This document shows positions 1-37,200 of a DNA stretch of 37,200 nucleotides, piece by piece; position 1 is the first letter of the stretch; each line of letters begins with the position of its first letter. Origin of the DNA: a virus (Duplodnaviria; Heunggongvirae; Uroviricota; Caudoviricetes); the IMG/VR virus record IMGVR_UViG_2526164668_000026. One strand, given 5' to 3'. The translations under genes and the position numbers were made by a program. A model generated the notes under the pieces. It saw only the letters and a list, made by a program, of their open reading frames with translations. It was not told the DNA's origin and ran no database searches.

Positions 1-1002
1 TTACCCTCTATTGTCAAAAGGATTCAATTCAACAGCAGCCTCTAAATGACCTGGAGCAAAATGCGCATAACGCATAGTCATTTTTATATCGCTATGCCCC
101 AGTATTTTTTGCAACACAAGAATATTTCCGCCCCGCATCATAAAATGACTGGCAAACGTGTGACGTAGCACATGAGTTAATTGCCCATCAGGAAGCTCGA
201 TCTTCGCTCTCTTAATTGCAGCGTCAAAAGCCTCATAACATGGTGAAAATAGCGCTCCTCGTTTTTTGGGAAGCATAGCCTGCAATTGAGGTGAAATCGG
301 TACAGTGCGGTTCTTCTTTCCTTTAGTTTTAACAAATGTGATTCGACCGGGCAGTACTTGAGATTGCTTTAATCCTTCTGCTTCACTCCACCGAGCACCA
401 GTCGCAAGCCCAATACGGACAACAACCCCCAAATCTTTATTCCGTGACTCATCACACGCAATCAGAAGGCGTTCAATCTCATCTACATACAGAAACGCCA
501 GTTCCTTTTCTTCCTCACGAAACTTGCGAATACCAGTCAGGGGGTTTTCACCAGACCACTCCCCAAGGCGCTTCAGTTCGGCAAAAACAGCATGTAGATA
601 TGACTGCTCGCGATTAACGGTTGCTTCACTAAGTTTTTTCTTCCCCTTGGGATTCCATTCTCCTGATAGCCTTCTTTCCCGATAAGTGGCAAACATATTT
701 TTGTCAAACTGAGAAGCAAATGGATCTCCCAGCCTGGAACAAATCGCCTCAAGTTTGACTTTGCGCTCTGCACCAGAGGACAAGGTTTTACCGTACATCT
801 CAAACCAACGAGCAATCAACTCAGAAAGACGAGGACCAGAACCATCTTGAAACTCGTCTCCAACTCTACTATTCATTAAACGGCGCTCATAAGAGAGCGC
901 CTCACTTTTTGTCGCAAACTGTTTACGAATGCGTTTTCCCGATGCCCCGTAGGGATAACATTCGCAAAGCCATTTACCTGATGGAATCTTACGAACCGAC
1001 AT
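1..1002 (-). CDS. int: Phage tyrosine integrase (P2/186-like)
   Basis: 333-aa ORF with C-terminal tyrosine-recombinase catalytic region (..ATGARWSE.., ..HVLRHTFASHF.., ..LGHSDIKMTMRYAH); sits at the prophage end downstream of the repressor operon. Confidence 0.9.
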   Translation of the reverse strand: MSVRKIPSGKWLCECYPYGASGKRIRKQFATKSEALSYERRLMNSRVGDEFQDGSGPRLSELIARWFEMYGKTLSSGAERKVKLEAICSRLGDPFASQFDKNMFATYRERRLSGEWNPKGKKKLSEATVNREQSYLHAVFAELKRLGEWSGENPLTGIRKFREEEKELAFLYVDEIERLLIACDESRNKDLGVVVRIGLATGARWSEAEGLKQSQVLPGRITFVKTKGKKNRTVPISPQLQAMLPKKRGALFSPCYEAFDAAIKRAKIELPDGQLTHVLRHTFASHFMMRGGNILVLQKILGHSDIKMTMRYAHFAPGHLEAAVELNPFDNRG

Positions 1003-1007
1003 TTTAG

Positions 1008-1355
1008 TTACTTATCACATAAATCAAATGCAGCCTTAGTGACATCCCCCAGACTCTTTTTTAACCCTGGGGCGGCATCATTATCTAGCCAAAATGGATT
1101 ATTGTTATCTAACGGTAACGCACCAAATGTTTTACCTTTTATTCGAGCCAAACCTGTAAGTGCATATAACTTATTATCGTCAAAATTCATCACATAAGGA
1201 TTACCATCAAGACACTGTAATTGAACCTCATCAGTATTAAATGGCCATACCCCATTGAAACTCTCACGTTCAATAGTTTTAAAAGGCATTGCGACGGCGG
1301 AAAAAGAAAACATAGATAAAAAAGTAACTAATAGTTGAACCTTTTTTACTTTCAT
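1008..1355 (-). CDS. Small secreted/periplasmic protein (signal peptide; resembles YebY/DUF2511-type proteins by recollection)
   Basis: 115-aa ORF with hydrophobic N-terminal signal-like segment (LLVTFLSMFSFSAVA), two Cys; lies between repressor operon and int on the same strand. Confidence 0.5.
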   Translation of the reverse strand: MKVKKVQLLVTFLSMFSFSAVAMPFKTIERESFNGVWPFNTDEVQLQCLDGNPYVMNFDDNKLYALTGLARIKGKTFGALPLDNNNPFWLDNDAAPGLKKSLGDVTKAAFDLCDK

Positions 1356-1384
1356 ATCATTACCTCAATTTAGCTCAAGTAAGA

Positions 1385-2035
1385 TTACAAATTAAAAAAC
1401 GCCCTAGAAATGACACCGCCTACCAAAACCCCTACGCAGATAAAGAATATTATTTCTTTTGGATAAAGTCGGATTAATTCTGAAGCACGAAGTCGGACCT
1501 CTGGTAAGGTCGAACTCTCTGTGTGGCTTGATGCCGATTGTTGCTCTAACCACGACAATGCAGACTGTAACTGAGAACGAGTAAGATCGTTTAAACGTCC
1601 TGTACCGAAATTGATATGGCAATACCGCAGAAGTTTTTGTCGAAGTCCACAGTCTTCACTGTTACGTAGTAATAAACTTACAAGAGCCTTACAGGCATCA
1701 TGATCTTTACATCGCTCAAGCATTGCATGCAGAAAACTCTCCGCTGTTTTATATTGATTTACTGTCATATCATCAATACCAGCTACACCAATCTCCGCAT
1801 GTACTTTTTGCCAAATAATAAACGCTTCAGTATTGCTAGCTTCTGCAATAGCAGCAACCAAGCTATTTAGCTCCTTACGCTGAGCCTTAAGCAAAGGGCG
1901 ATCGTCATCATCATTATTCGAAGGGATTGCGATATTGACAGTATGAGAACCATCATATCGCTCTATCTGAATATTCTTTTCGTGAAAATCACGCCCAGCA
2001 ACGCGATTGTTTGAACCGTTTGAGTTGACGGCCAT
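1385..2035 (-). CDS. Hypothetical membrane-anchored protein (C-terminal TM helix), lysogeny-operon cargo
   Basis: 216-aa ORF; C-terminal hydrophobic stretch IIFFICVGVLVGGVISRAFF; N-terminal NNRVAGRDF motif echoes the C-terminus of the upstream repressor; 13 bp downstream of the repressor stop on the same strand. Confidence 0.55.
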   Translation of the reverse strand: MAVNSNGSNNRVAGRDFHEKNIQIERYDGSHTVNIAIPSNNDDDDRPLLKAQRKELNSLVAAIAEASNTEAFIIWQKVHAEIGVAGIDDMTVNQYKTAESFLHAMLERCKDHDACKALVSLLLRNSEDCGLRQKLLRYCHINFGTGRLNDLTRSQLQSALSWLEQQSASSHTESSTLPEVRLRASELIRLYPKEIIFFICVGVLVGGVISRAFFNL

Positions 2036-2050
2036 GTCACCTCCCTACTA

Positions 2051-2455
2051 TCACCTACCCTTAGTTTCGTTATAGTCACGACCAGCGATACGGTTATTAC
2101 CACCAGAAATATTTAACTCACGTCCTGATGGCTGAGTTTCCTTTTCACTGATCGCACCTTTTAAAGCCCCAATCACCGCGTTTTTCACATCTAACGAAGC
2201 TGCTCGAAAGCGAGTAATCAACTCCTGCTCATCATCGTTATAAGTTTCAGGTGAGTGAATTCCCAACACAACATACTGAACATCAAGGCCAAAACGAGAC
2301 AGCGCTGCCAAATACGCAGCATCAGGAAAGCTATCTCCTTTCTCATATCTAAGCTGAGTTAGCTTTTTGACTCCACCAATGTCGCTCATGGCAACTTGAC
2401 TAAGTCCCAATCTTTCCCTTTCCTCACGCAACCGCTGACCAATATCATTTTTCAT
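2051..2455 (-). CDS. Immunity repressor, XRE/cI-type helix-turn-helix
   Basis: 134-aa ORF with N-terminal HTH (QRLREERERLGLSQVAMSDIGG...); divergent from the early operon; operator-like dyad in the intergenic region. Confidence 0.75.
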   Translation of the reverse strand: MKNDIGQRLREERERLGLSQVAMSDIGGVKKLTQLRYEKGDSFPDAAYLAALSRFGLDVQYVVLGIHSPETYNDDEQELITRFRAASLDVKNAVIGALKGAISEKETQPSGRELNISGGNNRIAGRDYNETKGR

Positions 2456-2464
2456 ACAAAAACC

Positions 2465-2493
2465 TTGACAGGTATCTTTTTTGATACCAAAAT
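2465..2493 (+). promoter_or_regulatory. Candidate early promoter (TTGACA -17 bp- CAAAAT) with embedded operator dyad GGTATC-N6-GATACC
   Basis: TTGACA at 2465-2470, 17-bp spacer, CAAAAT at 2488-2493; perfect inverted repeat ggtatc/gatacc at 2471-2488 inside the spacer; located between divergent repressor and early genes. Confidence 0.4.
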
Positions 2494-2530
2494 GATTTCA
2501 CGAGCTATTAGATGATCACAATATACCACT

Positions 2531-2737
2531 ATGAAACAAGTTCTTCACGATACCAGATCACGCATTCCGCGTAACACCGCCACAGGTCCAAGACTGGCAC
2601 TTCGGCTGTCCCTCGAGGAGCGAGCCGTCATTGATGAAATGGCAGCTAAAGAACAACGCTCATCCTCTAACATGGCGCGCATGATCTTCCTTCGCGGCCT
2701 AGAGCTAACCCAGAAAGAACAAAACAAATCTTCCTGA
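2531..2737 (+). CDS. First early-operon protein (Cox/Apl position; small putative DNA-binding regulator)
   Basis: 68-aa ORF, first gene rightward of the repressor; basic, helix-rich sequence; function assigned only by position. Confidence 0.4.
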   Translation: MKQVLHDTRSRIPRNTATGPRLALRLSLEERAVIDEMAAKEQRSSSNMARMIFLRGLELTQKEQNKSS

Positions 2738-2753
2738 TCAGGAGGCTAGTGGG

Positions 2754-2957
2754 ATGTCAGGTATAACCATCAATATCAATGTGAATGCCCCCTATGTATC
2801 CCTGCAGAAATATGCAGAGATAACAGGTATCCCTCTTAATACGTGCAAAAAGATGTTGGCTGACGGTCGAATTATTATCCGCCCCAAACGCGCCAAAATG
2901 GAAAAGCCTGAAGTAAACCTTGTGGCGATGTTAAAAGACGCTTTGGCTAACAGCTAA
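2754..2957 (+). CDS. Small early protein, putative HTH DNA-binding
   Basis: 67-aa ORF; GGGA RBS-like sequence just upstream; segment YAEITGIPLNTCKKMLADGRI resembles an HTH. Confidence 0.4.
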   Translation: MSGITININVNAPYVSLQKYAEITGIPLNTCKKMLADGRIIIRPKRAKMEKPEVNLVAMLKDALANS

Positions 2958-6274: not shown

Positions 6275-9037
6275 ATGACGGCAGAGTACATCAGGGACTG
6301 GCAACAACCGCGCCACGCAGTGGGGCGTGAAGGAACGGGGATCCCCGCTCCTGAATCCGCGCTTTCCTCCTGGCTGGATGCCTACCGGGTAGAGAACGAG
6401 CGCCGCCAGGAAATGGCTGATGCGGCGTTCTCCGCCACGCCGCTGGGCAACCTGATTAATAAAAGCCTGGACGCACAGGAAAAACAGGACAAAACCATCA
6501 CACTGGCAGGAGACGCCAGAAAACAGGCACGCGGCGCGGTGGATGAAGCCATGGCCTCGCTGCGCCTGCTGCCGTCCTATCTGCGCGATCCGCTTATTCG
6601 CCACCTCTCCTTCCTGCGCAAAAAACAGGAAGCCGATCGCCGGAAAGGCAAAAAGAGCTGGCAGGCGGAACGCTATGCACGCGGAACCCTGCGCAAAATA
6701 TTCGAACGTCTGGATAGCACTGACGGACGCTGGCTGACACCGGGTTATCGCTCCCTTGCCGGACGCGAACGCCTGGACGATTTGCTTTACCTGCCGCAGC
6801 TCAACAAACACCAGATACAGACGCTGGCCACCATGACGGCGGCGATGTTCAGCAGCACCTTCGAAAAACTCTGCGATGGCTTTGGCGCGACCGATGGCGA
6901 GCTGACCATGGATGTAACCCTGAAGGCGTATCAGATGCTGGCCCGCATGGCGTTACACCTGCACGCCATGCCTCCACATTATGACGCACTGACAACAGAC
7001 AAAGACCGGAGGAACGAACCGGACACGGAGCTGCTGCCGGGCGCAATCCTTCGCCTGACCTGTGCGGAATGGTGGAAACGCAAACTGTGGCTGTTACGTT
7101 GCGAGTGGAGAGAAGAACAACTCCGCGCCGCCTGTCTGGTTTCCAGAAAAACATCACCCTATCTGAGCCAGGACGCGTTAAGCGAGTTTCGCGCACAGCG
7201 CGAGAAAACACGCGATTTCCTGAAAAGTTTCATGCTGGAAAATGAAGACGGGTTCACGATTGATCTCGAGACAGTGTATTACGCGGGAGTAAGTAACCCG
7301 GTTCACCGTAAGGCAGAAATGATGGCCACCATGAAGGGGTTGGAACTTCTGGCCGAAGCCCGTGGCGACAAAGCGGTGTTTCTGACTGTCACCTGCCCGT
7401 CAAAATACCACGCCACAACGGAGAACGGTCATCCGAATCCCAAATGGAACGGGGCCACAATGCGCGACTCCAGCGATTACCTGGTTAACACGTTTTTTGC
7501 GGCGGTCCGCAAAAAACTGAACCGCGACGGCCTGCGCTGGTATGGCATCCGCACGGTGGAGCCTCATCATGACGGCACCGTGCACTGGCATATGATGGTC
7601 TTTGCACATCCGGAAGAAATCGACACCATTGTGTCCCATACCCGCGATATTGCCATTCAGGAAGACCGCCACGAGCTGGGCAATGATATTACTCCGCGCT
7701 TTAAGGTGGAGTATGTCGACGGCTCAAAAGGCACGCCAACCAGCTACATCGCCACCTACATCGGAAAGAACCTGGACAGCCGCGCCGTGGATGGCATCGA
7801 CCCGAAAACGGGCAAGCCACGCGTGGACCACGAAACCGGAAAATCAATGGCCGAGAGCGTGGAGCGCGCCATCGGCTGGGCGCGCCTTCACCGGGTCCGT
7901 CAGTTCCAGTTCTTTGGCATCCCCTCCCGTCAGGTGTGGCGTGAACTGCGCCGCCTTGCCAGCCAGATGGCACGCAATCCGGAAGGCCCGCAACGGCTGA
8001 AAGATGATGCAATGGATGCGGTACTCGCTGCCGCCGATGCCGGGTGTTTTGCCACCTACATTAAAAAACAGGGTGGCGTGCTTGTTCCACGCAAGGACTA
8101 CCTGATTCGCACCGCCTACGACCTCGCAGATGAGCTGAACGATTACGGCGAACAGAGCGTACAGATTTACGGAATCTGGTCACCACTCATCGGGGAATCC
8201 TCCCGTGTGTGCACGCATCCGGATAACTGGAAGCTAGTAAGACGTAAACCGGAAGCGGAAGACAGCGCCCGCGAAAATGGTTTTGACCTTCAGGGCGGCC
8301 CTGCCGCCCCTTGGACTCGTGGCAATAACTGTCCCCGTGTACAGGAAACAGACAACAACAGGACAGAACAGCCGGAAGAACGGCCAGCACTGTGGCCGCA
8401 GCTTCCTGACGGCGTTGATGTGGATGAATGGATGCGCTCACTGAAACGGCACGAACGCCGGGCGCTGATGCGTTCGCTGCGTGACAAACAGGCAAAAAAC
8501 AGCAGTGATGAAATGCAGAGCTGGACACAGAGCCGCAAACAGCAGCGGCCTTTGCCTGATAACCACGAATTACTCGCTAAAGAATGGCGGGAATCTGCCG
8601 AATCTCTCGGCCTGCATATCGGTGAACAGCAGATGCAGCACCTGTTACGGGGCGGCAGCTTGTACGTTGACGGCAGCATCATTGCACCACAGGGATTTGA
8701 AATTGTACGCAAACCGGATACCCGCCCGGACAGCCGAATCACGCAGCTCTGGCAGCGCCTGAGCCGTAATCACGGCGTAAGCAGCACGGAGATCCGCCAT
8801 AACCCGGTCGCCAGCTATCTGGAACAGCTGGGGGCATCAGACCCCAAAGCCGCCGCACGCCTGGCATCCACACTTCAGCAGGACCAGAACACCATGAAAA
8901 CCCCCGTTACTGTGCTTTCTGACATGCTGCGCGCCATTCACGACACAGAGCACACACAAAGAATCTGTGAAACAACCGAACGCGCCTGCCACAAAGCTGA
9001 CCTACTGCGAAGAGGAGTAAAGAGTGGGAACAAATAA
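6275..9037 (+). CDS. A: Replication initiation protein A (HUH rolling-circle endonuclease, P2 gpA-like)
   Basis: 920-aa ORF; HUH motif (..GTVHWHMMVFAHPEE..) followed by a tyrosine pair (..YIATYIGKN..); last large gene of the early operon. Confidence 0.85.
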   Translation: MTAEYIRDWQQPRHAVGREGTGIPAPESALSSWLDAYRVENERRQEMADAAFSATPLGNLINKSLDAQEKQDKTITLAGDARKQARGAVDEAMASLRLLPSYLRDPLIRHLSFLRKKQEADRRKGKKSWQAERYARGTLRKIFERLDSTDGRWLTPGYRSLAGRERLDDLLYLPQLNKHQIQTLATMTAAMFSSTFEKLCDGFGATDGELTMDVTLKAYQMLARMALHLHAMPPHYDALTTDKDRRNEPDTELLPGAILRLTCAEWWKRKLWLLRCEWREEQLRAACLVSRKTSPYLSQDALSEFRAQREKTRDFLKSFMLENEDGFTIDLETVYYAGVSNPVHRKAEMMATMKGLELLAEARGDKAVFLTVTCPSKYHATTENGHPNPKWNGATMRDSSDYLVNTFFAAVRKKLNRDGLRWYGIRTVEPHHDGTVHWHMMVFAHPEEIDTIVSHTRDIAIQEDRHELGNDITPRFKVEYVDGSKGTPTSYIATYIGKNLDSRAVDGIDPKTGKPRVDHETGKSMAESVERAIGWARLHRVRQFQFFGIPSRQVWRELRRLASQMARNPEGPQRLKDDAMDAVLAAADAGCFATYIKKQGGVLVPRKDYLIRTAYDLADELNDYGEQSVQIYGIWSPLIGESSRVCTHPDNWKLVRRKPEAEDSARENGFDLQGGPAAPWTRGNNCPRVQETDNNRTEQPEERPALWPQLPDGVDVDEWMRSLKRHERRALMRSLRDKQAKNSSDEMQSWTQSRKQQRPLPDNHELLAKEWRESAESLGLHIGEQQMQHLLRGGSLYVDGSIIAPQGFEIVRKPDTRPDSRITQLWQRLSRNHGVSSTEIRHNPVASYLEQLGASDPKAAARLASTLQQDQNTMKTPVTVLSDMLRAIHDTEHTQRICETTERACHKADLLRRGVKSGNK

Positions 9038-9257: not shown

Positions 9258-10622
9258 TTATTTTATAGTCATATTAGCTATTGATGTGGAAATATTAAAG
9301 ATATGGTTATATTCAAACGCAAAATCACCTTCTATACGCTGAACATAACTTCCCTTTTCATTACGTAATAGTTTTAATGTTTCTTTATCGATGTAATAAT
9401 AATCCAATAGTTCTTTAAGCAATTTAATTTCCGTCTTTGATGAAAAATAATCAGATTTTATATTAAGTAATTCTAATATCTCTTCAGAAGACATTTCCTT
9501 CTTAAGTAGTCGATTTAACATATCTGGAGAAGTTACTTTCAAGAAACAAACCAATGCTAATGCAATCATATAATAATTATCATCATTATTCGCTATACAC
9601 GTATGATTATCCACTACAAGCATAGTTGAAATACATCGTTCAACTTCTCGCAGCGAGCAATTATTGGTTTCAATCAAGCATGATAAGACTCTTACAAAAG
9701 CACCATCTGTATTAATACCTAGAGAGTGATTCTGTTGTAGAGTTTTTTTAATATACGTTGTAATCGTTGTTTTGTTAGATGCTTGTAACACCATAGAGTC
9801 ATACATATTTATTTTGGGCAAAGAAAACCAATAATGAATAAATTTATTCAAGTACAGACCAGTATTGATATCACCATATTTATATGCAATTCCCTTTTCA
9901 AATTGCTCTCGATTCATTACCAATAAGAAAACCATACCTTTCACAGAAAAAAGATGCTTAATTTTTTCCAATAGCTCTAGAGAATAATCTGGGCGGGCTC
10001 GATCAAGTTCATCAATAATAATCAAGGTTTTTCTCTTTGTATTTGTATATATTTCTTCTAAAGCTTTTTTAAAGTCAGCAATTGAGTTTTTTTCCTGCTC
10101 CATGGATTTTATTTTCTCTTCAACAAAAGACTCTAACTCACTATTAATGGAATCGCTAACTGTTTTTCCTGCCTCATCAAGAGCAGAACCATTCACAACA
10201 CCTGCTGTCAGGGTTGTAATAGCTACCTTTGCACCTCCGATTAATATTTTTGCACCTATTTTCTTACCAGTTTTAATAATGCGATCAGCTACATCTTCGG
10301 CCTCTACTCCTCTGTGTTTTAGTAAATTATATAGTTCAGATGATATTGAAATAAATGGATCTGATTGATAATCATTTTCAAATGCATCGAAATAAACAAC
10401 ATCTATATATTCACTATTAGTTAATTCTAATTCTGATTTTAACATCTTAACAAATGATGTTTTACCGCTACCCCATATATCATCTAACGCAAAAACCAAA
10501 TTTGAGTCAGGAGCATTAATAATAAGCCGTATCATTTGATCATATAATGTCTTACGATTAAATATGTCAGATGTAATATCAAAACCATTCTCAAAACCAT
10601 TCTGATTAGTAGTTATATTCAT
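9258..10622 (-). CDS. KAP-family P-loop NTPase (candidate stand-alone anti-phage defence gene)
   Basis: 454-aa ORF; Walker A DDIWGSGKTSF, Walker B LIIIDELDRA, hydrophobic Gly-rich insert (IGAKILIGGAKVAITTLTAGVV) between them as in KAP NTPases; GGAG RBS 5 nt upstream of ATG; sits in a visibly AT-rich island at the position of P2 tin/old. Confidence 0.8.
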   Translation of the reverse strand: MNITTNQNGFENGFDITSDIFNRKTLYDQMIRLIINAPDSNLVFALDDIWGSGKTSFVKMLKSELELTNSEYIDVVYFDAFENDYQSDPFISISSELYNLLKHRGVEAEDVADRIIKTGKKIGAKILIGGAKVAITTLTAGVVNGSALDEAGKTVSDSINSELESFVEEKIKSMEQEKNSIADFKKALEEIYTNTKRKTLIIIDELDRARPDYSLELLEKIKHLFSVKGMVFLLVMNREQFEKGIAYKYGDINTGLYLNKFIHYWFSLPKINMYDSMVLQASNKTTITTYIKKTLQQNHSLGINTDGAFVRVLSCLIETNNCSLREVERCISTMLVVDNHTCIANNDDNYYMIALALVCFLKVTSPDMLNRLLKKEMSSEEILELLNIKSDYFSSKTEIKLLKELLDYYYIDKETLKLLRNEKGSYVQRIEGDFAFEYNHIFNISTSIANMTIK

Positions 10623-25477: not shown

Positions 25478-26005
25478 TTACTCTGGTTTTTGTGGCCATT
25501 CTGGCTTTGCCGTATCCACACGGCTGACCAGAACACTGTAGCGTTCCCATGCTTCCAGTCGTGTGCGCTCCTCGTCTGTTGCCATATTCAGCCTGACAGC
25601 GCGTTCCAGCGGCTGGATGACTGATTCAGCTTCGGAAAGCAATGCGGCCTTTTGTAATTCGGCCTGTTGTTGCTGTTCGTCTGCCGTATAAATCCGTTTA
25701 ACTACAGCTCCATCCTTAAACATCCACTTACCGGAATCATCAGCGCGGCGGTTGGCTGTAATATCGGGAACCTCAACGACGCTAAAACCTTCAGGGTTAA
25801 GCGTGGAGGCATCTCTAGTGATGGCGACAATAATATTATTTGCATCGTAAACAATCTTTATTGTGTCTGGCTGAAAGTTTTTCACTTCCTCATACCAGTT
25901 TTTTTCGTCCTCGGAGTAAAGCCAGATGACTCCGTACTTCTTTGTTAACTCATACTGTTCCAGTGTTTTAGCGTTACCCGCTTTTATGTTCTTTAAGTGC
26001 ATCAT
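25478..26005 (-). CDS. Alternative tail fibre assembly chaperone (G'), in the invertible segment
   Basis: 175-aa ORF, N-terminus [24 protein letters not shown]; convergent with G. Confidence 0.8.
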
Positions 26006-26006
26006 A

Positions 26007-26984
26007 TTAAACGCTCGCTACATTATACCAAGTGCCATTTATATACTTTTGAACGGGTCTGTAATAAACGCCCGCTATATTATCGGCAGAATTGGACCCT
26101 GTATCCTGAACATTAATACCAGACAATACATGACCTGACGGGCACTGGAAATTCCATGTTTGCCAGTTGTTCACTCCATAATATTGCTGTGAACCAAGTC
26201 GAACATCTTTCACATAACGGGAATCAAAGTTACCGTAATCTGAGGGATTAACACGACCTGTAATATTTATGGTTTTATTACTTTGAATACTGCCGGAGAC
26301 AAAGCGCATAACATGGACGTTATTAGCATAAACATCCAGATACCCGTCGCCATTTTGTTTAAATCCCGTGTCATTATCACCCAAAACAATCGAGTTACCA
26401 CCAAGAGCACTGGATGTTCCGATGCCCAGTGCACCATTCAATTGACCGCCAGATAATGACAACGCCCCAACCTCAGCAGCAGTCGGTTTAATGTGCGAAC
26501 TGTAAATTACATATACAGTTCCATCTGTCAGGCCTGTTGGTTTATTCGCTGTATAAGTTGGTGATGTATGAATCGTTACGCTGGCGTTACTGGTATAATC
26601 CCACTGAATATTAACACCTGTGGCGTAATTACCTATTTCAACATAAACATCATAGGTATCACCGGATGTATTCACCCATGCAAAATTAGTAAATCCAACC
26701 GAGGTCCGTCGCCATAATGCACCAGTAATACCTTTTGGATTTCCATTTCCGGCACGCAGAACCAGCTCAGAGATGCCTGCTTGATGCGGGGAGCCAACGT
26801 TAAACCCTGCGCCACCAATCAGGCTTATGTAAACCACGGAACTGGCTTGTGGCATTGTTACAGTTGCCAGTTTGAACCATCCTGCACCACCATTAAAAGA
26901 CATGGTTGTTGAATTTGTTGCTCCAATATTGCGCAGGAATAATCTTTTATCAGGAATATCTGCGCCATTCTGGTTTTTCTGCAA
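26007..26984 (-). CDS. Alternative tail fibre C-terminal cassette (fused to H only after inversion)
   Basis: 325-aa ORF beginning [11 protein letters not shown].., the same peptide that H reads just inside the left crossover site (..[15 protein letters not shown]..); no upstream gene on its strand. Confidence 0.75.
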
Positions 26985-27034: not shown

Positions 27035-27088
27035 TGGCCGTTTCTGACCTGCATGGCATGATTTACGCTTTTGGACGGGAGATTCAGC

Positions 27089-27676
27089 GTGCTGATTGGC
27101 TATGTAAGGGTATCAACAAATGACCAGAATACAGACCTGCAACGAAACGCTCTTGTTTGTGCAGGATGTGAACAAATATTTGAAGATAAATTAAGCGGGA
27201 CAAAGACAGACCGACCGGGATTAAAACGCGCTTTAAAGCGTCTTCAAAAAGGTGACACGCTGGTTGTCTGGAAACTGGATCGCCTCGGGCGAAGCATGAA
27301 ACATCTGATTTCTCTCGTCGGGGAACTACGGGAGCGAGGGATTAATTTTCGCAGTCTGACCGACAGCATAGATACATCTTCTCCAATGGGGCGTTTTTTC
27401 TTCCACGTGATGGGTGCCCTGGCTGAAATGGAACGTGAATTAATTGTTGAACGTACACTGGCCGGACTGGCAGCAGCGCGCGCACGGGGGCGCACAGGCG
27501 GACGTCGCCCGAAGCTGACAAAAGAACAGCATGAGCAAATAGCAAGGCTGATTAAAAACGGTCACGACAGAAAACAACTGGCAATAATTTACGGCATTGG
27601 TACATCGACGATTTATCGTTACCACCCCGCAGGAGAATCAAGCGGAACAATAGAGAAGAGTCAGAAAACAAAATAA
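27089..27676 (+). CDS. Serine DNA invertase (Pin/Gin/Cin/Hin family)
   Basis: Protein from GTG 27089 begins MLIGYVRVSTNDQNTDLQRNAL.. (catalytic Ser in VRVSTNDQ), C-terminal HTH (GIGTSTIYRY); beside the invertible segment. The ORF-track start 27071 is probably too early. Confidence 0.9.
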   Translation: MLIGYVRVSTNDQNTDLQRNALVCAGCEQIFEDKLSGTKTDRPGLKRALKRLQKGDTLVVWKLDRLGRSMKHLISLVGELRERGINFRSLTDSIDTSSPMGRFFFHVMGALAEMERELIVERTLAGLAAARARGRTGGRRPKLTKEQHEQIARLIKNGHDRKQLAIIYGIGTSTIYRYHPAGESSGTIEKSQKTK

Positions 27677-36197: not shown

Positions 36198-36284
36198 TGG
36201 TACCCGGAGCGGGACTTGAACCCGCACAGCGCGAACGCCGAGGGATTTTAAATCCCTTGTGTCTACCGATTCCACCATCCGGGC
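36198..36284 (-). tRNA. leuZ: tRNA-Leu (anticodon UAA)
   Basis: Reverse complement gives GCCCGGATGGTGGAATCGGTAGACACAAGGGATTTAAAATCCC...CCGGGTACCA, 87 nt with CCA end. Confidence 0.9.
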
Positions 36285-36296
36285 TCGGGAAGAAAG

Positions 36297-36370
36297 TGGA
36301 GGCGCGTTCCGGAGTCGAACCGGACTAGACGGATTTGCAATCCGCTACATAACCGCTTTGTTAACGCGCC
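36297..36370 (-). tRNA. cysT: tRNA-Cys (anticodon GCA)
   Basis: Reverse complement gives GGCGCGTTAACAAAGCGGTTATGTAGCGGATTGCAAATCCGTC...CGCGCCTCCA, 74 nt. Confidence 0.9.
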
Positions 36371-36424
36371 AAATTCTTCAGGCCTTTCAGCCAGACATCC
36401 GCTTGACGCCGATGTCTTTTAAAC

Positions 36425-36500
<76 letters not shown>

Positions 36501-36651: not shown

Positions 36652-37200
36652 TCACTGATCAAGCAAATCTGCACGCGCAGCGCTCAAATATTGCAACATT
36701 GACCACAGAGTCAGTACCGCAGCCACAAAGAAAAGTGCAATACCGGCGTACTCAACCCAAATGTTCGGACGCCACAGCAGCCAGGCCAACGCCACCATCT
36801 GGGCAGTGGTTTTCACTTTCCCAATCCAGGAGACAGCCACGCTACTGCGTTTACCCAACTCCGCCATCCATTCGCGTAGCGCAGAAATAATAATTTCACG
36901 GGCGATCATCGTTGCCGCCGGTAGGGTCACCCACCAGCTGTGATAATGCTCGGTTACCAGCACCATGGCGATAGCCACGAGAACTTTATCTGCTACAGGG
37001 TCAAGGAAAGCACCAAACCGGGTACTCTGGTTCCAGCGGCGTGCCAGAAAACCATCGAACCAGTCAGTCACCGCCGCGACGCAGAAAATGAGCGCGGCGG
37101 CAAACGGCGACCAGGTGACAGGCAGATAAAAGACCAATACAAAGAATGGGATAAGGATGACACGGAACAGTGTAAGCAACGTAGGGATATTAAATTGCAT
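36652..37200 (-). CDS. pgsA: CDP-diacylglycerol--glycerol-3-phosphate 3-phosphatidyltransferase
   Basis: 182-aa [31 protein letters not shown].. recognised as enterobacterial PgsA; upstream of glyW-cysT-leuZ as in E. coli; start codon at the window edge. Confidence 0.9.

What the first reader, a model, noticed from the sequence alone, without database searches (positions are those of the whole stretch)
1008..2455. Two extra genes inside the repressor-integrase operon; the membrane protein starts with a motif that mirrors the repressor C-terminus
Seen in sequence: between the XRE-type repressor (2051..2455) and int (1..1002), on the same strand and tightly spaced, lie a 216-aa protein with a C-terminal TM helix (1385..2035) and a 115-aa signal-peptide protein (1008..1355). 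The repressor ends ..NISGGNNRIAGRDYNETKGR and the next protein begins MAVNSNGSNNRVAGRDFHEKN..; the shared NNR(I/V)AGRD(Y/F).E block is encoded by different codons, so it is conserved at the protein level rather than being a recent DNA duplication. Inference: genes co-transcribed with the repressor are expressed in the lysogen, so these are candidates for superinfection exclusion, immunity modulation or lysogenic conversion. The shared motif could be a common interaction or degradation tag. In P2 as I recall it, C and int are adjacent with no genes in between.
Basis: partly seen in the sequence, partly recalled or inferred. Interest (0 to 1): 0.55.

Follow-up and report, generated by a model that had tools for sequence, protein, structure and literature searches.

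The report
Repressor and membrane partner share tag
In this P2-like E. coli prophage, and in many P2-like and Mu-like phages, the repressor's floppy C-terminal tail carries the same short glycine/asparagine-rich motif as the N-terminus of the membrane-anchored protein encoded next to it. The pairing suggests an undescribed link between the lysogeny switch and the cell membrane.

Summary
Four tightly spaced minus-strand genes have no terminator-like site between them: XRE repressor, 216-aa protein, 115-aa protein and integrase. The repressor tail (LNISGGNNRIAGRDYNETK) and the head of the 216-aa protein (VNSNGSNNRVAGRDFHEKN) share a motif written in different codons.

The two "extra" genes differ in kind. 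The 115-aa secreted DUF2511/YebY-like protein sits in a variable cargo slot next to int, a known hotspot position. The 216-aa protein is a phage relative of the host tail-anchored protein Flk: a disordered head, a helical Flk_N domain and a C-terminal membrane anchor. It is a fixed partner of this repressor type.

All 45 related P2-like loci with an intact upstream gene show the pairing. In Mu-like phages (B3, BcepMu, KS10 and uncultured ones) homologous repressors carry other tail motifs, and the downstream Flk_N-related protein mirrors each one. Cognate pairing beat all but 2 of 500,000 permutations. Both copies are under purifying selection and are predicted disordered. Their composition is G/N/Q/V/I-rich and K/P/L-poor.

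The best reading is a homotypic docking motif that couples the repressor to a membrane protein. An amyloid-like signalling version is not excluded. No interaction was tested. I found no prior description.

The parts
2051..2455 (-). XRE-type prophage repressor, 134 aa: HTH core (about residues 5-64), two further helices (74-105) and a disordered tail (101-134).
   Evidence: PHROG phrog_8 transcriptional regulator, E 2.5e-14. Pfam HTH_31/HTH_3 hits fall below the gathering cut-off. It lies divergent to the Arc-like and Cox-like genes. The AlphaFold2 model has pLDDT <50 for residues 101-134.
2060..2116 (-). Tail motif of the repressor, residues 114-132 (LNISGGNNRIAGRDYNETK), followed by the basic end GR.
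   Evidence: Sequence. Conserved as ..SGxGNRxAGRD[YF]NExKK in homologous repressors. pN/pS is 0.215.
2036..2050 (-). Junction: the repressor stop TGA (2051..2053) is followed by TAG TAG GGAGGTGAC and then ATG. That is two more in-frame stops and a GGAGG Shine-Dalgarno for the next gene.
   Evidence: Read from the sequence. Gap length and frame vary between loci, from 8 to 55 nt, so a read-through fusion is excluded.
1385..2035 (-). 216-aa Flk_N-family tail-anchored membrane protein, the conserved partner of the repressor.
   Evidence: Homologues carry the precomputed Pfam family PF27202, Flk_N. NCBIfam Flk model E 8.6e-16 over residues 37-166. phrog_5825 E 4e-103. AlphaFold2 model.
1973..2029 (-). 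Head motif of the 216-aa protein, residues 3-21 (VNSNGSNNRVAGRDFHEKN). It lies within a disordered beta-prone N-terminal region (residues 1-40, nt 1916..2035) that continues with IQIERYDGSHTVNIAIPS.
   Evidence: Sequence. Nearly invariant G7, N10, R11, D16 and E19 across the family. pLDDT <50 for residues 1-40. pN/pS is 0.249.
1511..1900 (-). Helical Flk_N domain, residues about 46-175.
   Evidence: AlphaFold2 helices 50-67, 71-82, 92-125, 129-143 and 153-175, with pLDDT mostly 77-94. Matches the Flk model.
1391..1468 (-). C-terminal tail-anchor transmembrane helix, residues about 190-215.
   Evidence: Kyte-Doolittle maximum 2.36 at residues 195-213. AlphaFold2 helix 192-215. Host Flk is an experimentally established tail-anchored protein (PMC6794478).
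1008..1355 (-). 115-aa secreted DUF2511/YebY-like protein, occupying the variable cargo slot between the Flk_N gene and int. The signal peptide is about residues 1-22 (nt 1290..1355).
   Evidence: Pfam DUF2511, 28.4 bits against a cut-off of 21. phrog_2950 E 8.7e-40. PDB YebY 7N0J, E 0.0027. The slot holds at least 10 unrelated gene families in related loci.
1..1002 (-). Tyrosine integrase, the last gene of the unit.
   Evidence: Pfam Int_N and Phage_integrase. phrog_1.
2456..2530 (.). Divergent control region between the repressor and the early operon: Arc-like gene 2531..2737 (+) and Cox-like gene 2754..2957 (+).
   Evidence: A sigma-70-like site TTGACA-17-CAAAAT lies at 2465..2493 on the plus strand. 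PHROG assigns the Arc-like repressor and the Cox-like excisionase/repressor.

Best explanation
**What the parts are.** The repressor and the 216-aa protein form a two-part immunity module. The repressor is an XRE-type DNA-binding protein whose last ~30 residues are a flexible tail ending in a ~20-residue G/N-rich motif. The next gene encodes a phage relative of the host protein Flk. It has the same motif on a flexible N-terminal head, then a cytoplasmic helical Flk_N domain, then a C-terminal tail anchor in the inner membrane.

**Proposed mechanism (inferred, not shown).** The two copies of the motif pair with each other, beta-strand to beta-strand. Part of the repressor pool is thereby docked to, or controlled by, the membrane protein. 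This would couple repressor availability or stability, and hence maintenance of lysogeny or induction, to something that happens at the membrane.

**Shown here.**
- The pairing is conserved.
- It co-varies by motif class across distant phages.
- Both copies are under purifying selection.
- Tail-less homologous repressors lack the partner (one locus examined).

**Inferred.** Direct binding, cytoplasmic exposure of the head, the direction of signalling, and expression of the unit in the lysogen.

**The third gene.** The 115-aa DUF2511 gene is separate. It is cargo in the variable slot next to int.
For: 1. **Conservation in P2-like loci.** In 11 genome loci and 34 metagenome loci, every locus with an intact upstream ORF has a repressor ending ..NRxAGRD[YF].E.. 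directly before a Flk_N gene starting MxVNSxGxxNRxAGRDFxE.
2. **Other motif classes in Mu-like phages.** Homologous repressors carry different tails, and the downstream Flk_N-related protein mirrors each one:
   - Pectobacterium: QIFNGDISGQFAGNQIIN / QEFNGTAQGQFSSRDIIN
   - Gilliamella: GQIAGGNIY / EQIAGRDIY
   - Pseudomonas: QQFNGPVGTVTSGDVVN / QQFHDRVHQVAAGDIKN
   - L022: QTFHGSVGQSVAGSITN / QDFHGEVGQAAGGDINN
   - B3: NRTAGRDFHE / NIVAGRDFIE
   - KS10: VASGSGITQVG / MSASGFGIIQVAG
   - BcepMu: QVFHGSVGQAV / QEFNKPVGQAI
3. **Statistics.** Across 12 diverse pairs the cognate score sum is 501, against 325 +/- 35 for permuted pairings. Only 2 of 500,000 permutations reach it. Control segments score 14-31.
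4. **Negative control.** A homologous but tail-less repressor in a 186/P2-like prophage has no Flk_N gene downstream.
5. **Selection.** pN/pS is 0.215 for the tail and 0.249 for the head, at pS 0.7-0.8.
6. **Disorder.** Both motif regions are predicted disordered in the monomers, as expected for segments that fold on binding.
7. **Against a single host reader.** Different classes occur in phages of one species (P. aeruginosa B3 versus the L018 type). KS10 and BcepMu coexist as prophages in B. cenocepacia J2315 (PMC2628397).
8. **A possible natural fusion.** One weak hit (P0379, E 8.8e-4) has HTH, an N/G/I-rich stretch and Flk_N in a single chain.
9. **Topology.** Host Flk is a proven tail-anchored protein (PMC6794478), so the head is inferred to face the cytoplasm, where the repressor is.
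Against: - No interaction was tested or modelled.
- Within the NRxAGRD class the variable positions of tail and head do not track each other. Tail NRV pairs with head NRT, NRI or NRN. The invariant core could therefore equally be read by a third factor.
- Classes of the FHGxVGQ type cross-match. The cognate head is the best match for only 5 of 12 tails.
- The biological output is unknown: sequestration, stabilisation, induction or cell killing.
- Lysogen expression is inferred from layout only.
- Nothing is known about what the Flk_N domain binds. The fold search gave no significant match.
Confidence: 0.55

Rival explanations
1. Amyloid-like (prion-like) signalling. The shared motif is a templating cross-beta element of the kind described for adjacent gene pairs in fungi and bacteria. 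Clustering of one partner nucleates the beta fold in the other. This would switch off the repressor (induction) or activate the membrane protein (abortive infection). It is a special case of direct homotypic contact.
For: The pair meets the bioinformatic criteria used to define bacterial amyloid signalling sequences:
- The genes are adjacent and collinear with very short spacing.
- A motif of 15 residues or more is shared between the C-terminus of one product and the N-terminus of the next.
- There are several motif families (criteria; data).
- Composition is G 15%, V 11%, N 10.5%, I 10% and Q 7.5%, with L 1.8%, K 1.4% and P 0.6%. This matches the reported enrichment in Q/N/G/V/I and depletion in K/P/L.
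- The membrane partner often carries two or more pseudo-repeats where the repressor has one. Examples are L011, P0282, P0300 and BcepMu gp18. Single versus double repeats are also described for such pairs.

An E. coli precedent exists in Bab/Agp BASS11.
Against: - No amyloid or aggregation assay or predictor was available.
- AlphaFold2 gives only disorder.
- The core NRxAGRD[YF]xE is rich in charged residues.
- Neither partner is an NLR, Bell or other known immune domain.
- The repressor and its partner are presumably co-expressed constantly in lysogens, so an irreversible templating switch needs an extra trigger that is not identified.
Confidence: 0.18
2. Shared recognition tag for a third factor. 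Both proteins display the same short linear motif because both are read by one protease, adaptor or phage-encoded antirepressor. The membrane protein then acts as a decoy or competitor that sets repressor turnover.
For: - Both motifs lie in disordered termini.
- The core is invariant within a class, without pairwise tracking.
- The repressor tails end in basic residues (NENKK, NKKNK, RRRKTK, GAKKKK, GKGKKRK). This loosely recalls the basic C motif-2 ClpX signal, and Mu repressor has a C-terminal ClpX recognition region (PMC3983244).
Against: - Several very different motif classes exist in phages of the same host species, and two classes coexist in one strain. A host factor would have to read them all.
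- No third copy of the motif, and no obvious reader, is encoded in the window.
- The only genes shared by the P2-like and Mu-like contexts are the two partners themselves.
- The tails lack the terminal hydrophobic residue of the C motif-2 consensus.
Confidence: 0.17
3. Toxin-antitoxin-like addiction pair. The membrane protein is potentially harmful when its head self-associates. The repressor tail caps it, so loss of the repressor (curing, or attack by another phage) releases a membrane toxin.
For: - The gene order (HTH protein first, partner second, tightly coupled) matches many type II systems. That order is recalled from general knowledge.
- Weak hits of the repressor to the MqsA and HipB-type antitoxin HTH families.
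- Pseudo-repeats in the heads suggest self-association.
Against: - No evidence of toxicity.
- The host paralogue Flk is a benign regulator.
- No PADLOC hit for the 216-aa protein.
- Some partners lack a membrane anchor (KS10 gp12, the L024 partner).
Confidence: 0.07
4. Evolutionary leftover or chance. The motif is a relic of a gene fission with an overlapping duplication, or a chance similarity, with no present function.
For: One single-chain HTH-motif-Flk_N protein exists (P0379), so fission or fusion events have happened in this family.
Against: - Purifying selection acts on both copies at saturated synonymous divergence.
- The pairing is kept in 45 of 45 class-A loci and in every Mu-like locus examined.
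- Class-level co-variation: 2 of 500,000 permutations.
- Chance is excluded in the window: 0 of 500 shuffles.
Confidence: 0.03

Closest known systems
Amyloid signalling motif pairs (fungal HET-S/NWD2; bacterial BASS1-10 in Bell/NLR pairs; E. coli Bab/Agp BASS11)
   Same: Adjacent collinear genes with tiny spacing. A ~20-25-residue motif is shared by the C-terminus of one product and the N-terminus of the next. There are several motif families, a G/N/Q/V/I-rich and K/P/L-poor composition, pseudo-repeats on one side, and one partner acting at a membrane (searches compared).
   Different: The partners here are a transcriptional repressor and a Flk_N tail-anchored protein, not an NLR/TPR sensor and a Bell/HeLo pore-former. 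The BASS screen looked only at Bell/NLR pairs, and the papers do not mention repressors, HTH or Flk. The commonest core here, NRxAGRD[YF]xE, is more charged. Amyloid formation is untested.
Host Flk (flagella biosynthesis regulator, tail-anchored inner-membrane protein)
   Same: The helical Flk_N domain (NCBIfam Flk E 8.6e-16 over residues 37-166; pairwise 22% identity over 112 residues) and a C-terminal tail anchor (PMC6794478).
   Different: The score of 58 bits is far below the Flk equivalog cut-off of 353. Host Flk proteins are ~330 aa with two Flk_N-like stretches. They start MQPxSGP.. without the motif. As far as I know, their genes are not next to a repressor. The role of Flk in flagellar export control is recalled from memory and has no evident link to a prophage switch.
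Variable accessory-gene slot between repressor and integrase in P2-related phages (K139-like cI-int hotspot; minor P2 hotspot between integrase and primase)
   Same: The 115-aa DUF2511 gene lies in a slot next to int whose content changes from locus to locus. Such a hotspot is described between cI and int of K139-like phages (PMC9122126) and between integrase and primase in P2-like prophages (PMC13586616).
   Different: Here the slot lies after a conserved repressor-partner gene, so only the third gene turns over. Most cargo genes have no known defence domain. The only hits are weak BRCT / PDC-S48 matches, and none was found for DUF2511.
Phage Mu repressor C-terminal tail controlling ClpXP degradation
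   Same: A flexible C-terminal tail of a transposable-phage repressor acts as a regulatory handle (PMC3983244; details from memory). The tails here end in basic residues.
   Different: Mu Rep is not an XRE protein and has no matching partner gene. The tails here do not fit the C motif-2 consensus. The distinctive feature, a mirrored motif on the neighbouring membrane protein, has no counterpart in Mu as far as I know.
Lysogen-expressed genes co-transcribed with a repressor (lambda cI-rexA-rexB; K139 cI-glo)
   Same: Genes placed downstream of the repressor in the same unit, at least one encoding a membrane protein (layout; the lambda and K139 examples are from memory).
   Different: No sequence relation. 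Those systems have no shared terminal motif between the repressor and the downstream product.

Membership tests
Flk_N family (Pfam PF27202) | Match to the Flk_N domain model | tested here: met
   All close homologues carry precomputed PF27202, named Flk_N. The window protein matches the NCBIfam Flk model over residues 37-166, E 8.6e-16. PF27202 is absent from the local Pfam copy, so the window protein itself could not be scanned against it.
Flk_N family (Pfam PF27202) | C-terminal tail-anchor transmembrane helix with almost no residues after it | tested here: met
   Hydropathy maximum 2.36 at residues 195-213 of 216. AlphaFold2 helix 192-215. Conserved G202 and G206 lie within a hydrophobic stretch across the family.
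Flk proper (NCBIfam NF007987 equivalog, flagella biosynthesis regulator) | Score above the curated equivalog cut-off; ~330 aa with two Flk_N-like stretches | tested here: not met
   58.1 bits against a cut-off of 353, with one stretch only, in a 216-aa protein. Some database entries that name homologues 'flagella biosynthesis regulator' are over-annotated.
XRE-family phage repressor | Helix-turn-helix DNA-binding domain | tested here: inconclusive
   Pfam HTH_31, 23.2 bits against a cut-off of 27; HTH_3, 19.1 against 23. However, PHROG phrog_8 gives E 2.5e-14, the RstR/DicA families give E ~5e-6, and AlphaFold2 predicts five short helices at residues 5-64 with pLDDT ~90. Homologues are annotated as repressors in KS10, BcepMu and B3.
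XRE-family phage repressor | Position divergent to the early lytic operon, upstream of int | tested here: met
   The Arc-like and Cox-like genes diverge from it across 2456..2530, and int lies downstream.
Bacterial amyloid signalling sequence (BASS) gene pair | Adjacent collinear genes, short spacing, with a motif of 15 residues or more shared by the C-terminus of one product and the N-terminus of the other | tested here: met
   15-nt gap in the window. 19 aligned residues with z 8.8. The same holds in all related loci. Criteria as given.
Bacterial amyloid signalling sequence (BASS) gene pair | Composition enriched in Q/N/G/V/I and depleted in K/P/L | tested here: met
   G 15.2, V 10.9, N 10.5, I 10.3 and Q 7.5%; L 1.8, K 1.4 and P 0.6% over 506 motif residues from 11 pairs. 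Reference statement.
Bacterial amyloid signalling sequence (BASS) gene pair | Partners are an NLR-type (or other immune) sensor and a Bell-type or other cell-death effector | tested here: not met
   The partners are an XRE repressor and a Flk_N protein. No PADLOC hit for the 216-aa protein.
Bacterial amyloid signalling sequence (BASS) gene pair | The motif forms amyloid fibrils or prion-like foci and transmits the fold between partners | not testable with these tools
   This needs peptides, ThT, electron microscopy and GFP-foci assays. AlphaFold2 monomers show only low-confidence coil.
Prophage variable (defence/moron) hotspot between repressor module and int | Flanked by conserved genes, with high turnover of unrelated cargo | tested here: met
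   At least 10 unrelated products occupy the slot between the Flk_N gene and int in 45 loci. The hotspot position is described.
Prophage variable (defence/moron) hotspot between repressor module and int | Cargo includes recognised anti-phage systems | tested here: inconclusive
   Only partial hits of two cargo proteins to candidate PDC-S48, via a BRCT domain. Nothing for DUF2511.
DUF2511 / YebY family | Pfam DUF2511 match above the gathering score | tested here: met
   28.4 bits against a cut-off of 21, covering residues 28-113. YebY structure 7N0J, E 0.0027. phrog_2950.
Type II toxin-antitoxin pair | Growth inhibition by the second gene product, neutralised by the first | not testable with these tools
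   No assay possible. Only weak HTH similarity to the MqsA and HipB-type antitoxin families.

The most novel reading that the evidence does not exclude
The matched motifs are a prion-like (cross-beta templating) signalling element that connects a temperate-phage repressor to a tail-anchored membrane protein. A membrane or envelope event could then flip the lysis-lysogeny switch, or loss or clustering of the repressor could fire a membrane effector, by fold templating rather than by proteolysis or a classical antirepressor. The many motif classes would keep co-resident prophages insulated from one another.
Probability: 0.18. Interest if true: 0.9.

Novelty: new variant of a known kind. Interest (0 to 1): 0.72.

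Why it matters
**Prevalence.** The 1.5-kb module is present in 521 of 5,426 complete E. coli genomes, including many O157:H7 strains. Related modules occur in classical, tractable phages (B3, BcepMu, KS10) and across Enterobacterales, Orbales, Pseudomonas and Burkholderia.

**If the tail and head really pair.**
- These phages would have a repressor whose activity is wired to an inner-membrane protein. That input to the lysis-lysogeny decision is distinct from RecA-type cleavage and from soluble antirepressors.
- The rule "adjacent genes share a terminal motif" would extend from immune sensor/effector pairs to a transcription factor.
- A set of apparently orthogonal ~20-residue docking tags would become available.

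**Annotation.** Homologues named "flagella biosynthesis regulator" are phage proteins, and the 216-aa gene is left unannotated in the reference phage record.

**Accessory-gene hunting.** Only the third gene is cargo.

Tried and rejected
**Explanations considered and rejected or left without support**
1. **Read-through or frameshift fusion of the two ORFs.** In the window they are in the same frame, but three stops in a row separate them (TGA TAG TAG). In other loci the gap (8-55 nt) and the frame vary.
2. **Recent DNA duplication or gene conversion.** Only 33 of 57 nt are identical, and most identical residues use different codons.
3. **Residue-level co-variation within the NRxAGRD class.** None is visible. 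Only class-level co-variation holds.
4. **A third copy of the motif elsewhere in the prophage.** None in any frame.

**Searches and analyses that gave nothing**
5. **Known defence systems.** PADLOC gave nothing for the 216-aa and 115-aa proteins, and only generic HTH hits for the repressor.
6. **Fold search of the 216-aa model against the PDB.** No significant match. The best hit was an Stl/Sak complex chain at E 0.86 over 66 columns, which I did not interpret. A profile search of the PDB found nothing.
8. **Collecting distant loci from viral contigs.** Two alignments were too diverse to search, and one scan gave only two loci. tblastn of the Pseudomonas-type partner against isolated phages found nothing.
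9. **Literature searches.** Searches for prophage + repressor + amyloid signalling, and for Flk + prophage + repressor, found no description. The KS10 genome paper lists gp12 as having no significant match.
Full report
**1.
The gaps are 5, 29 and 15 nt, each downstream gene has its own Shine-Dalgarno sequence, and no terminator-like site lies in 900..2800.

The repressor ends ..LNISGGNNRIAGRDYNETKGR and the next protein begins MAVNSNGSNNRVAGRDFHEKN. Ten of 19 aligned residues are identical, but only 33 of 57 nucleotides are. Only 4 of the 10 identical residues share a codon. The tail/head alignment scores 62, against 22 +/- 4.5 for shuffled heads (0 of 500 shuffles reach it). The strict motif occurs nowhere else in any of the six frames of the window.

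**2. What the genes are.**
The window is a P2-like prophage. It is 98% identical to Escherichia phage 520873 (Peduoviridae, Xuanwuvirus), whose record leaves both small genes unannotated. It is integrated beside the tRNA Leu-Cys-Gly cluster and pgsA.

- **Repressor.** An XRE-type protein (phrog_8, E 2.5e-14), placed divergent to Arc-like and Cox-like early genes. AlphaFold2 gives a confident helical core (residues 5-105) and a tail (101-134) with pLDDT below 50.
- **115-aa protein.** It has a signal peptide and is a DUF2511/YebY-like protein.
- **216-aa protein.** It belongs to the Flk_N family (PF27202). It matches the NCBIfam model of the host protein Flk over residues 37-166 (E 8.6e-16), but at 58 bits against an equivalog cut-off of 353. 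It is therefore a phage relative of Flk, not Flk itself. Its model shows a disordered head (1-40), a helical domain (50-175) and a C-terminal membrane helix (192-215). Host Flk is an experimentally established tail-anchored inner-membrane protein (PMC6794478), so the head is inferred to face the cytoplasm.

**3. The pairing is a family trait, and the two "extra" genes differ in kind.**
The 216-aa family is widespread in Enterobacterales, and its head motif is nearly invariant down to 60% identity. I examined 11 loci from species genomes and 34 from metagenomes, all P2-like. Every locus with an intact upstream ORF has a repressor ending ..SGxGNRxAGRD[YF]NExKK, followed 8-55 nt later by MxVNSxGxxNRxAGRDFxE.

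The repressor DNA-binding regions differ between loci while the tail stays the same. By contrast, the gene between the Flk_N gene and int changes from locus to locus. It is DUF2511 in some. In others it is:
- an acidic protein of 81-108 aa,
- a membrane protein of 242-244 aa,
- a protein of 291-298 aa,
- a 292-aa BRCT protein,
- a secreted protein of 128-137 aa,
- and further unrelated products.

That is a cargo slot. A hotspot between cI and int is described for K139-like P2 relatives (PMC9122126), and a minor one between integrase and primase for P2-like prophages (PMC13586616).

**4. Other motif classes, mirrored each time.**
Homologues of the repressor fall into groups with different C-terminal tails. 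I looked up their loci. They are Mu-like transposable prophages of Pectobacterium, Gilliamella, Pseudomonas and uncultured bacteria, plus the isolated phages B3, KS10 and BcepMu. In each, the gene after the repressor encodes a Flk_N-related protein whose N-terminus mirrors that repressor's tail.

| Source | Repressor tail | Partner head |
|---|---|---|
| Pectobacterium | QIFNGDISGQFAGNQIIN | QEFNGTAQGQFSSRDIIN |
| L022 | QTFHGSVGQSVAGSITNKSGVTFNVG | QDFHGEVGQAAGGDINNYGVNISFV |
| B3 | ISVTGDGNRTAGRDFHE | IEVTGSNNIVAGRDFIE |
| KS10 | VASGSGITQVG | MSASGFGIIQVAG |
| BcepMu | QVFHGSVGQAV | QEFNKPVGQAI |

The partner bodies vary:
- full Flk_N plus tail anchor;
- Flk_N without an anchor (KS10 gp12);
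- motif plus a partial Flk_N region plus two membrane helices (B3 ORF20);
- motif plus half of Flk_N plus a membrane helix plus a periplasmic domain (BcepMu gp18).

Over 12 diverse pairs the summed cognate score is 501, against 325 +/- 35 for permuted pairings. Only 2 of 500,000 permutations reach it, and control segments score 14-31. A homologous repressor without a tail, in a 186/P2-like prophage, has no Flk_N gene after it.

**5. Nature of the motif.**
- Both copies are under purifying selection (pN/pS 0.215 and 0.249, at pS 0.7-0.8).
- Both are predicted disordered in the monomers.
- Pooled motif residues are G 15%, V 11%, N 10.5%, I 10% and Q 7.5%, with L 1.8%, K 1.4% and P 0.6%.
- Several partner heads contain two or more pseudo-repeats where the repressor has one.
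- The repressor tails end in a short basic stretch.
- Read-through is excluded, because there are three consecutive stops here and the frame varies elsewhere.

**6. Most likely mechanism.**
The repressor tail and the partner head are most likely a cognate homotypic docking pair. Through it, a membrane-anchored Flk_N protein binds or controls the repressor. Shown here are conservation, class-level co-variation, selection, the co-occurrence rule and disorder. Inferred are direct binding, cytoplasmic topology, the direction of the effect and expression in the lysogen.

Against a single host reader such as a protease, I count two points. Very different classes occur in phages of one species (B3 and the L018 type in P. 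aeruginosa). KS10 and BcepMu coexist as prophages in one B. cenocepacia strain (PMC2628397). This looks like insulation between co-resident prophages.

One weak hit joins HTH, an N/G/I-rich stretch and Flk_N in a single chain (P0379, E 8.8e-4). Another joins the Flk_N protein to a periplasmic domain that resembles, by eye, the third gene product of locus L022 (P0274). This hints that some third genes may work with the membrane partner.

Weaknesses:
- No interaction was modelled or tested.
- There is no residue-level tracking within the main class.
- The FHGxVGQ classes cross-match.

Rivals, with my weights: amyloid-like templating as a special case (0.18), a shared tag for a third factor (0.17), a toxin-antitoxin-like pair (0.07), and a relic or chance (0.03).

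**7. Comparison with known systems.**
The closest formal parallel is the amyloid signalling motif pair. This includes fungal HET-S/NWD2, bacterial BASS1-10 in Bell/NLR pairs (bioRxiv 10.1101/2020.01.06.895854) and E. coli Bab/Agp BASS11 (bioRxiv 10.1101/2024.11.07.622273).

The present pairs meet the genomic, positional and compositional criteria. They fail the partner-domain criterion, and amyloid formation cannot be tested here, so I do not file them as BASS. Those papers do not mention repressors, HTH or Flk, and full-text searches found no description of this pairing.

The 216-aa protein is a member of the Flk_N family but is not Flk. The DUF2511 gene occupies a known type of hotspot.

**8. 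Verdict.**
I rate this a new variant of a known kind, namely paired terminal motifs on adjacent gene products, here on a phage repressor and a membrane protein. It is of substantial interest because it is common, phylogenetically broad, unannotated, and testable in classical phages.

Noticed in passing
window 9258..10622 (-): A 454-aa KAP-family P-loop NTPase lies between the replication gene A (6275..9037) and the portal-side late genes. This is the classical P2 gpA-gpQ defence hotspot. It matches the PADLOC candidate system PDC-S20 (E 8e-76), with weaker hits to PifA and QatA.
   Followed up: partly
window 27071..27676 (+), with 25478..26005 (-) and 26007..26984 (-): A serine recombinase (Resolvase + HTH_7) sits next to a tail-fibre assembly gene and a 325-aa ORF on the opposite strand. 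The layout looks like a Gin/Cin-type invertible tail-fibre (host-range) segment. Inverted repeats were not searched.
   Followed up: partly
window 36198..36500 (-) and 36652..37200 (-): tRNA-Leu(taa), tRNA-Cys(gca) and tRNA-Gly(gcc) are followed by pgsA (CDP-alcohol phosphatidyltransferase). This is host flank, so the prophage end and attachment site lie just before about 36200. A pgsA-like ORF also flanks the related loci L002 and L004.
   Followed up: partly
L001 (NC_049344.1, Escherichia phage 520873) 2040..3080: The reference phage record annotates neither the Flk_N gene nor the DUF2511 gene, and it splits int into two CDS. tblastn needs three pieces to cover the 216-aa protein, so the record probably carries frameshift errors.
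   Followed up: partly
P0274 (318 aa) compared with L022:2917-3321: One Flk_N protein continues past its membrane helix into a periplasmic domain (..LPAIRHEFPGLDKYAAEF..). By eye, this resembles the separate secreted third-gene product of L022 (..LPAIRQACPGLDKYSQSF..). It is a possible fusion link between the membrane partner and some 'cargo' genes.
   Followed up: no
P0379 (239 aa): A single chain carries an XRE HTH, an N/G/I-rich stretch (VNIAGSNSGNINIDN) and an Flk_N-like domain, with no membrane anchor. It is a weak hit (E 8.8e-4) from a low-GC organism. It may be a natural fusion of the two partners.
   Followed up: partly
P0350 and P0377; phrog_245 hit of window 1385..2035: The first half of the Flk_N domain (PLxxxQRxxLxxLV...W..VHxxxGV) also occurs after Rha/Ant-like N-terminal regions and weakly matches the PHROG 'anti-repressor Ant' family (E 0.004). 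This sub-domain may be shared with antirepressor-type proteins.
   Followed up: no
L012:3069-3455 and L012:3697-3966 (Candidatus Arsenophonus triatominarum): Two repressor-like ORFs in tandem lie upstream of one Flk_N gene. One is full-length and one is truncated, and both end in ..QRIAGRDYNE(T/R)K. The endosymbiont genome appears degenerate (transposase fragments nearby).
   Followed up: no
Repressor C-termini in window 2054..2062 and loci L014, L016, L023, L024, L027, L028: Immediately after the shared motif nearly all repressor tails end in a short basic run (KGR, NENKK, NKKNK, RRRKTK, GAKKKK, GKKPKK, TGKK, GKGKKRK). The membrane partners have no such run. It could be a lipid- or DNA-binding patch or part of a degron.
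   Followed up: no
L016 compared with L017 (Gilliamella prophages): In L017 the Flk_N gene is split into two ORFs (53 aa and 92 aa), whereas it is intact in L016 with an identical repressor. This is a natural knockout of the partner that could be compared phenotypically.
   Followed up: no
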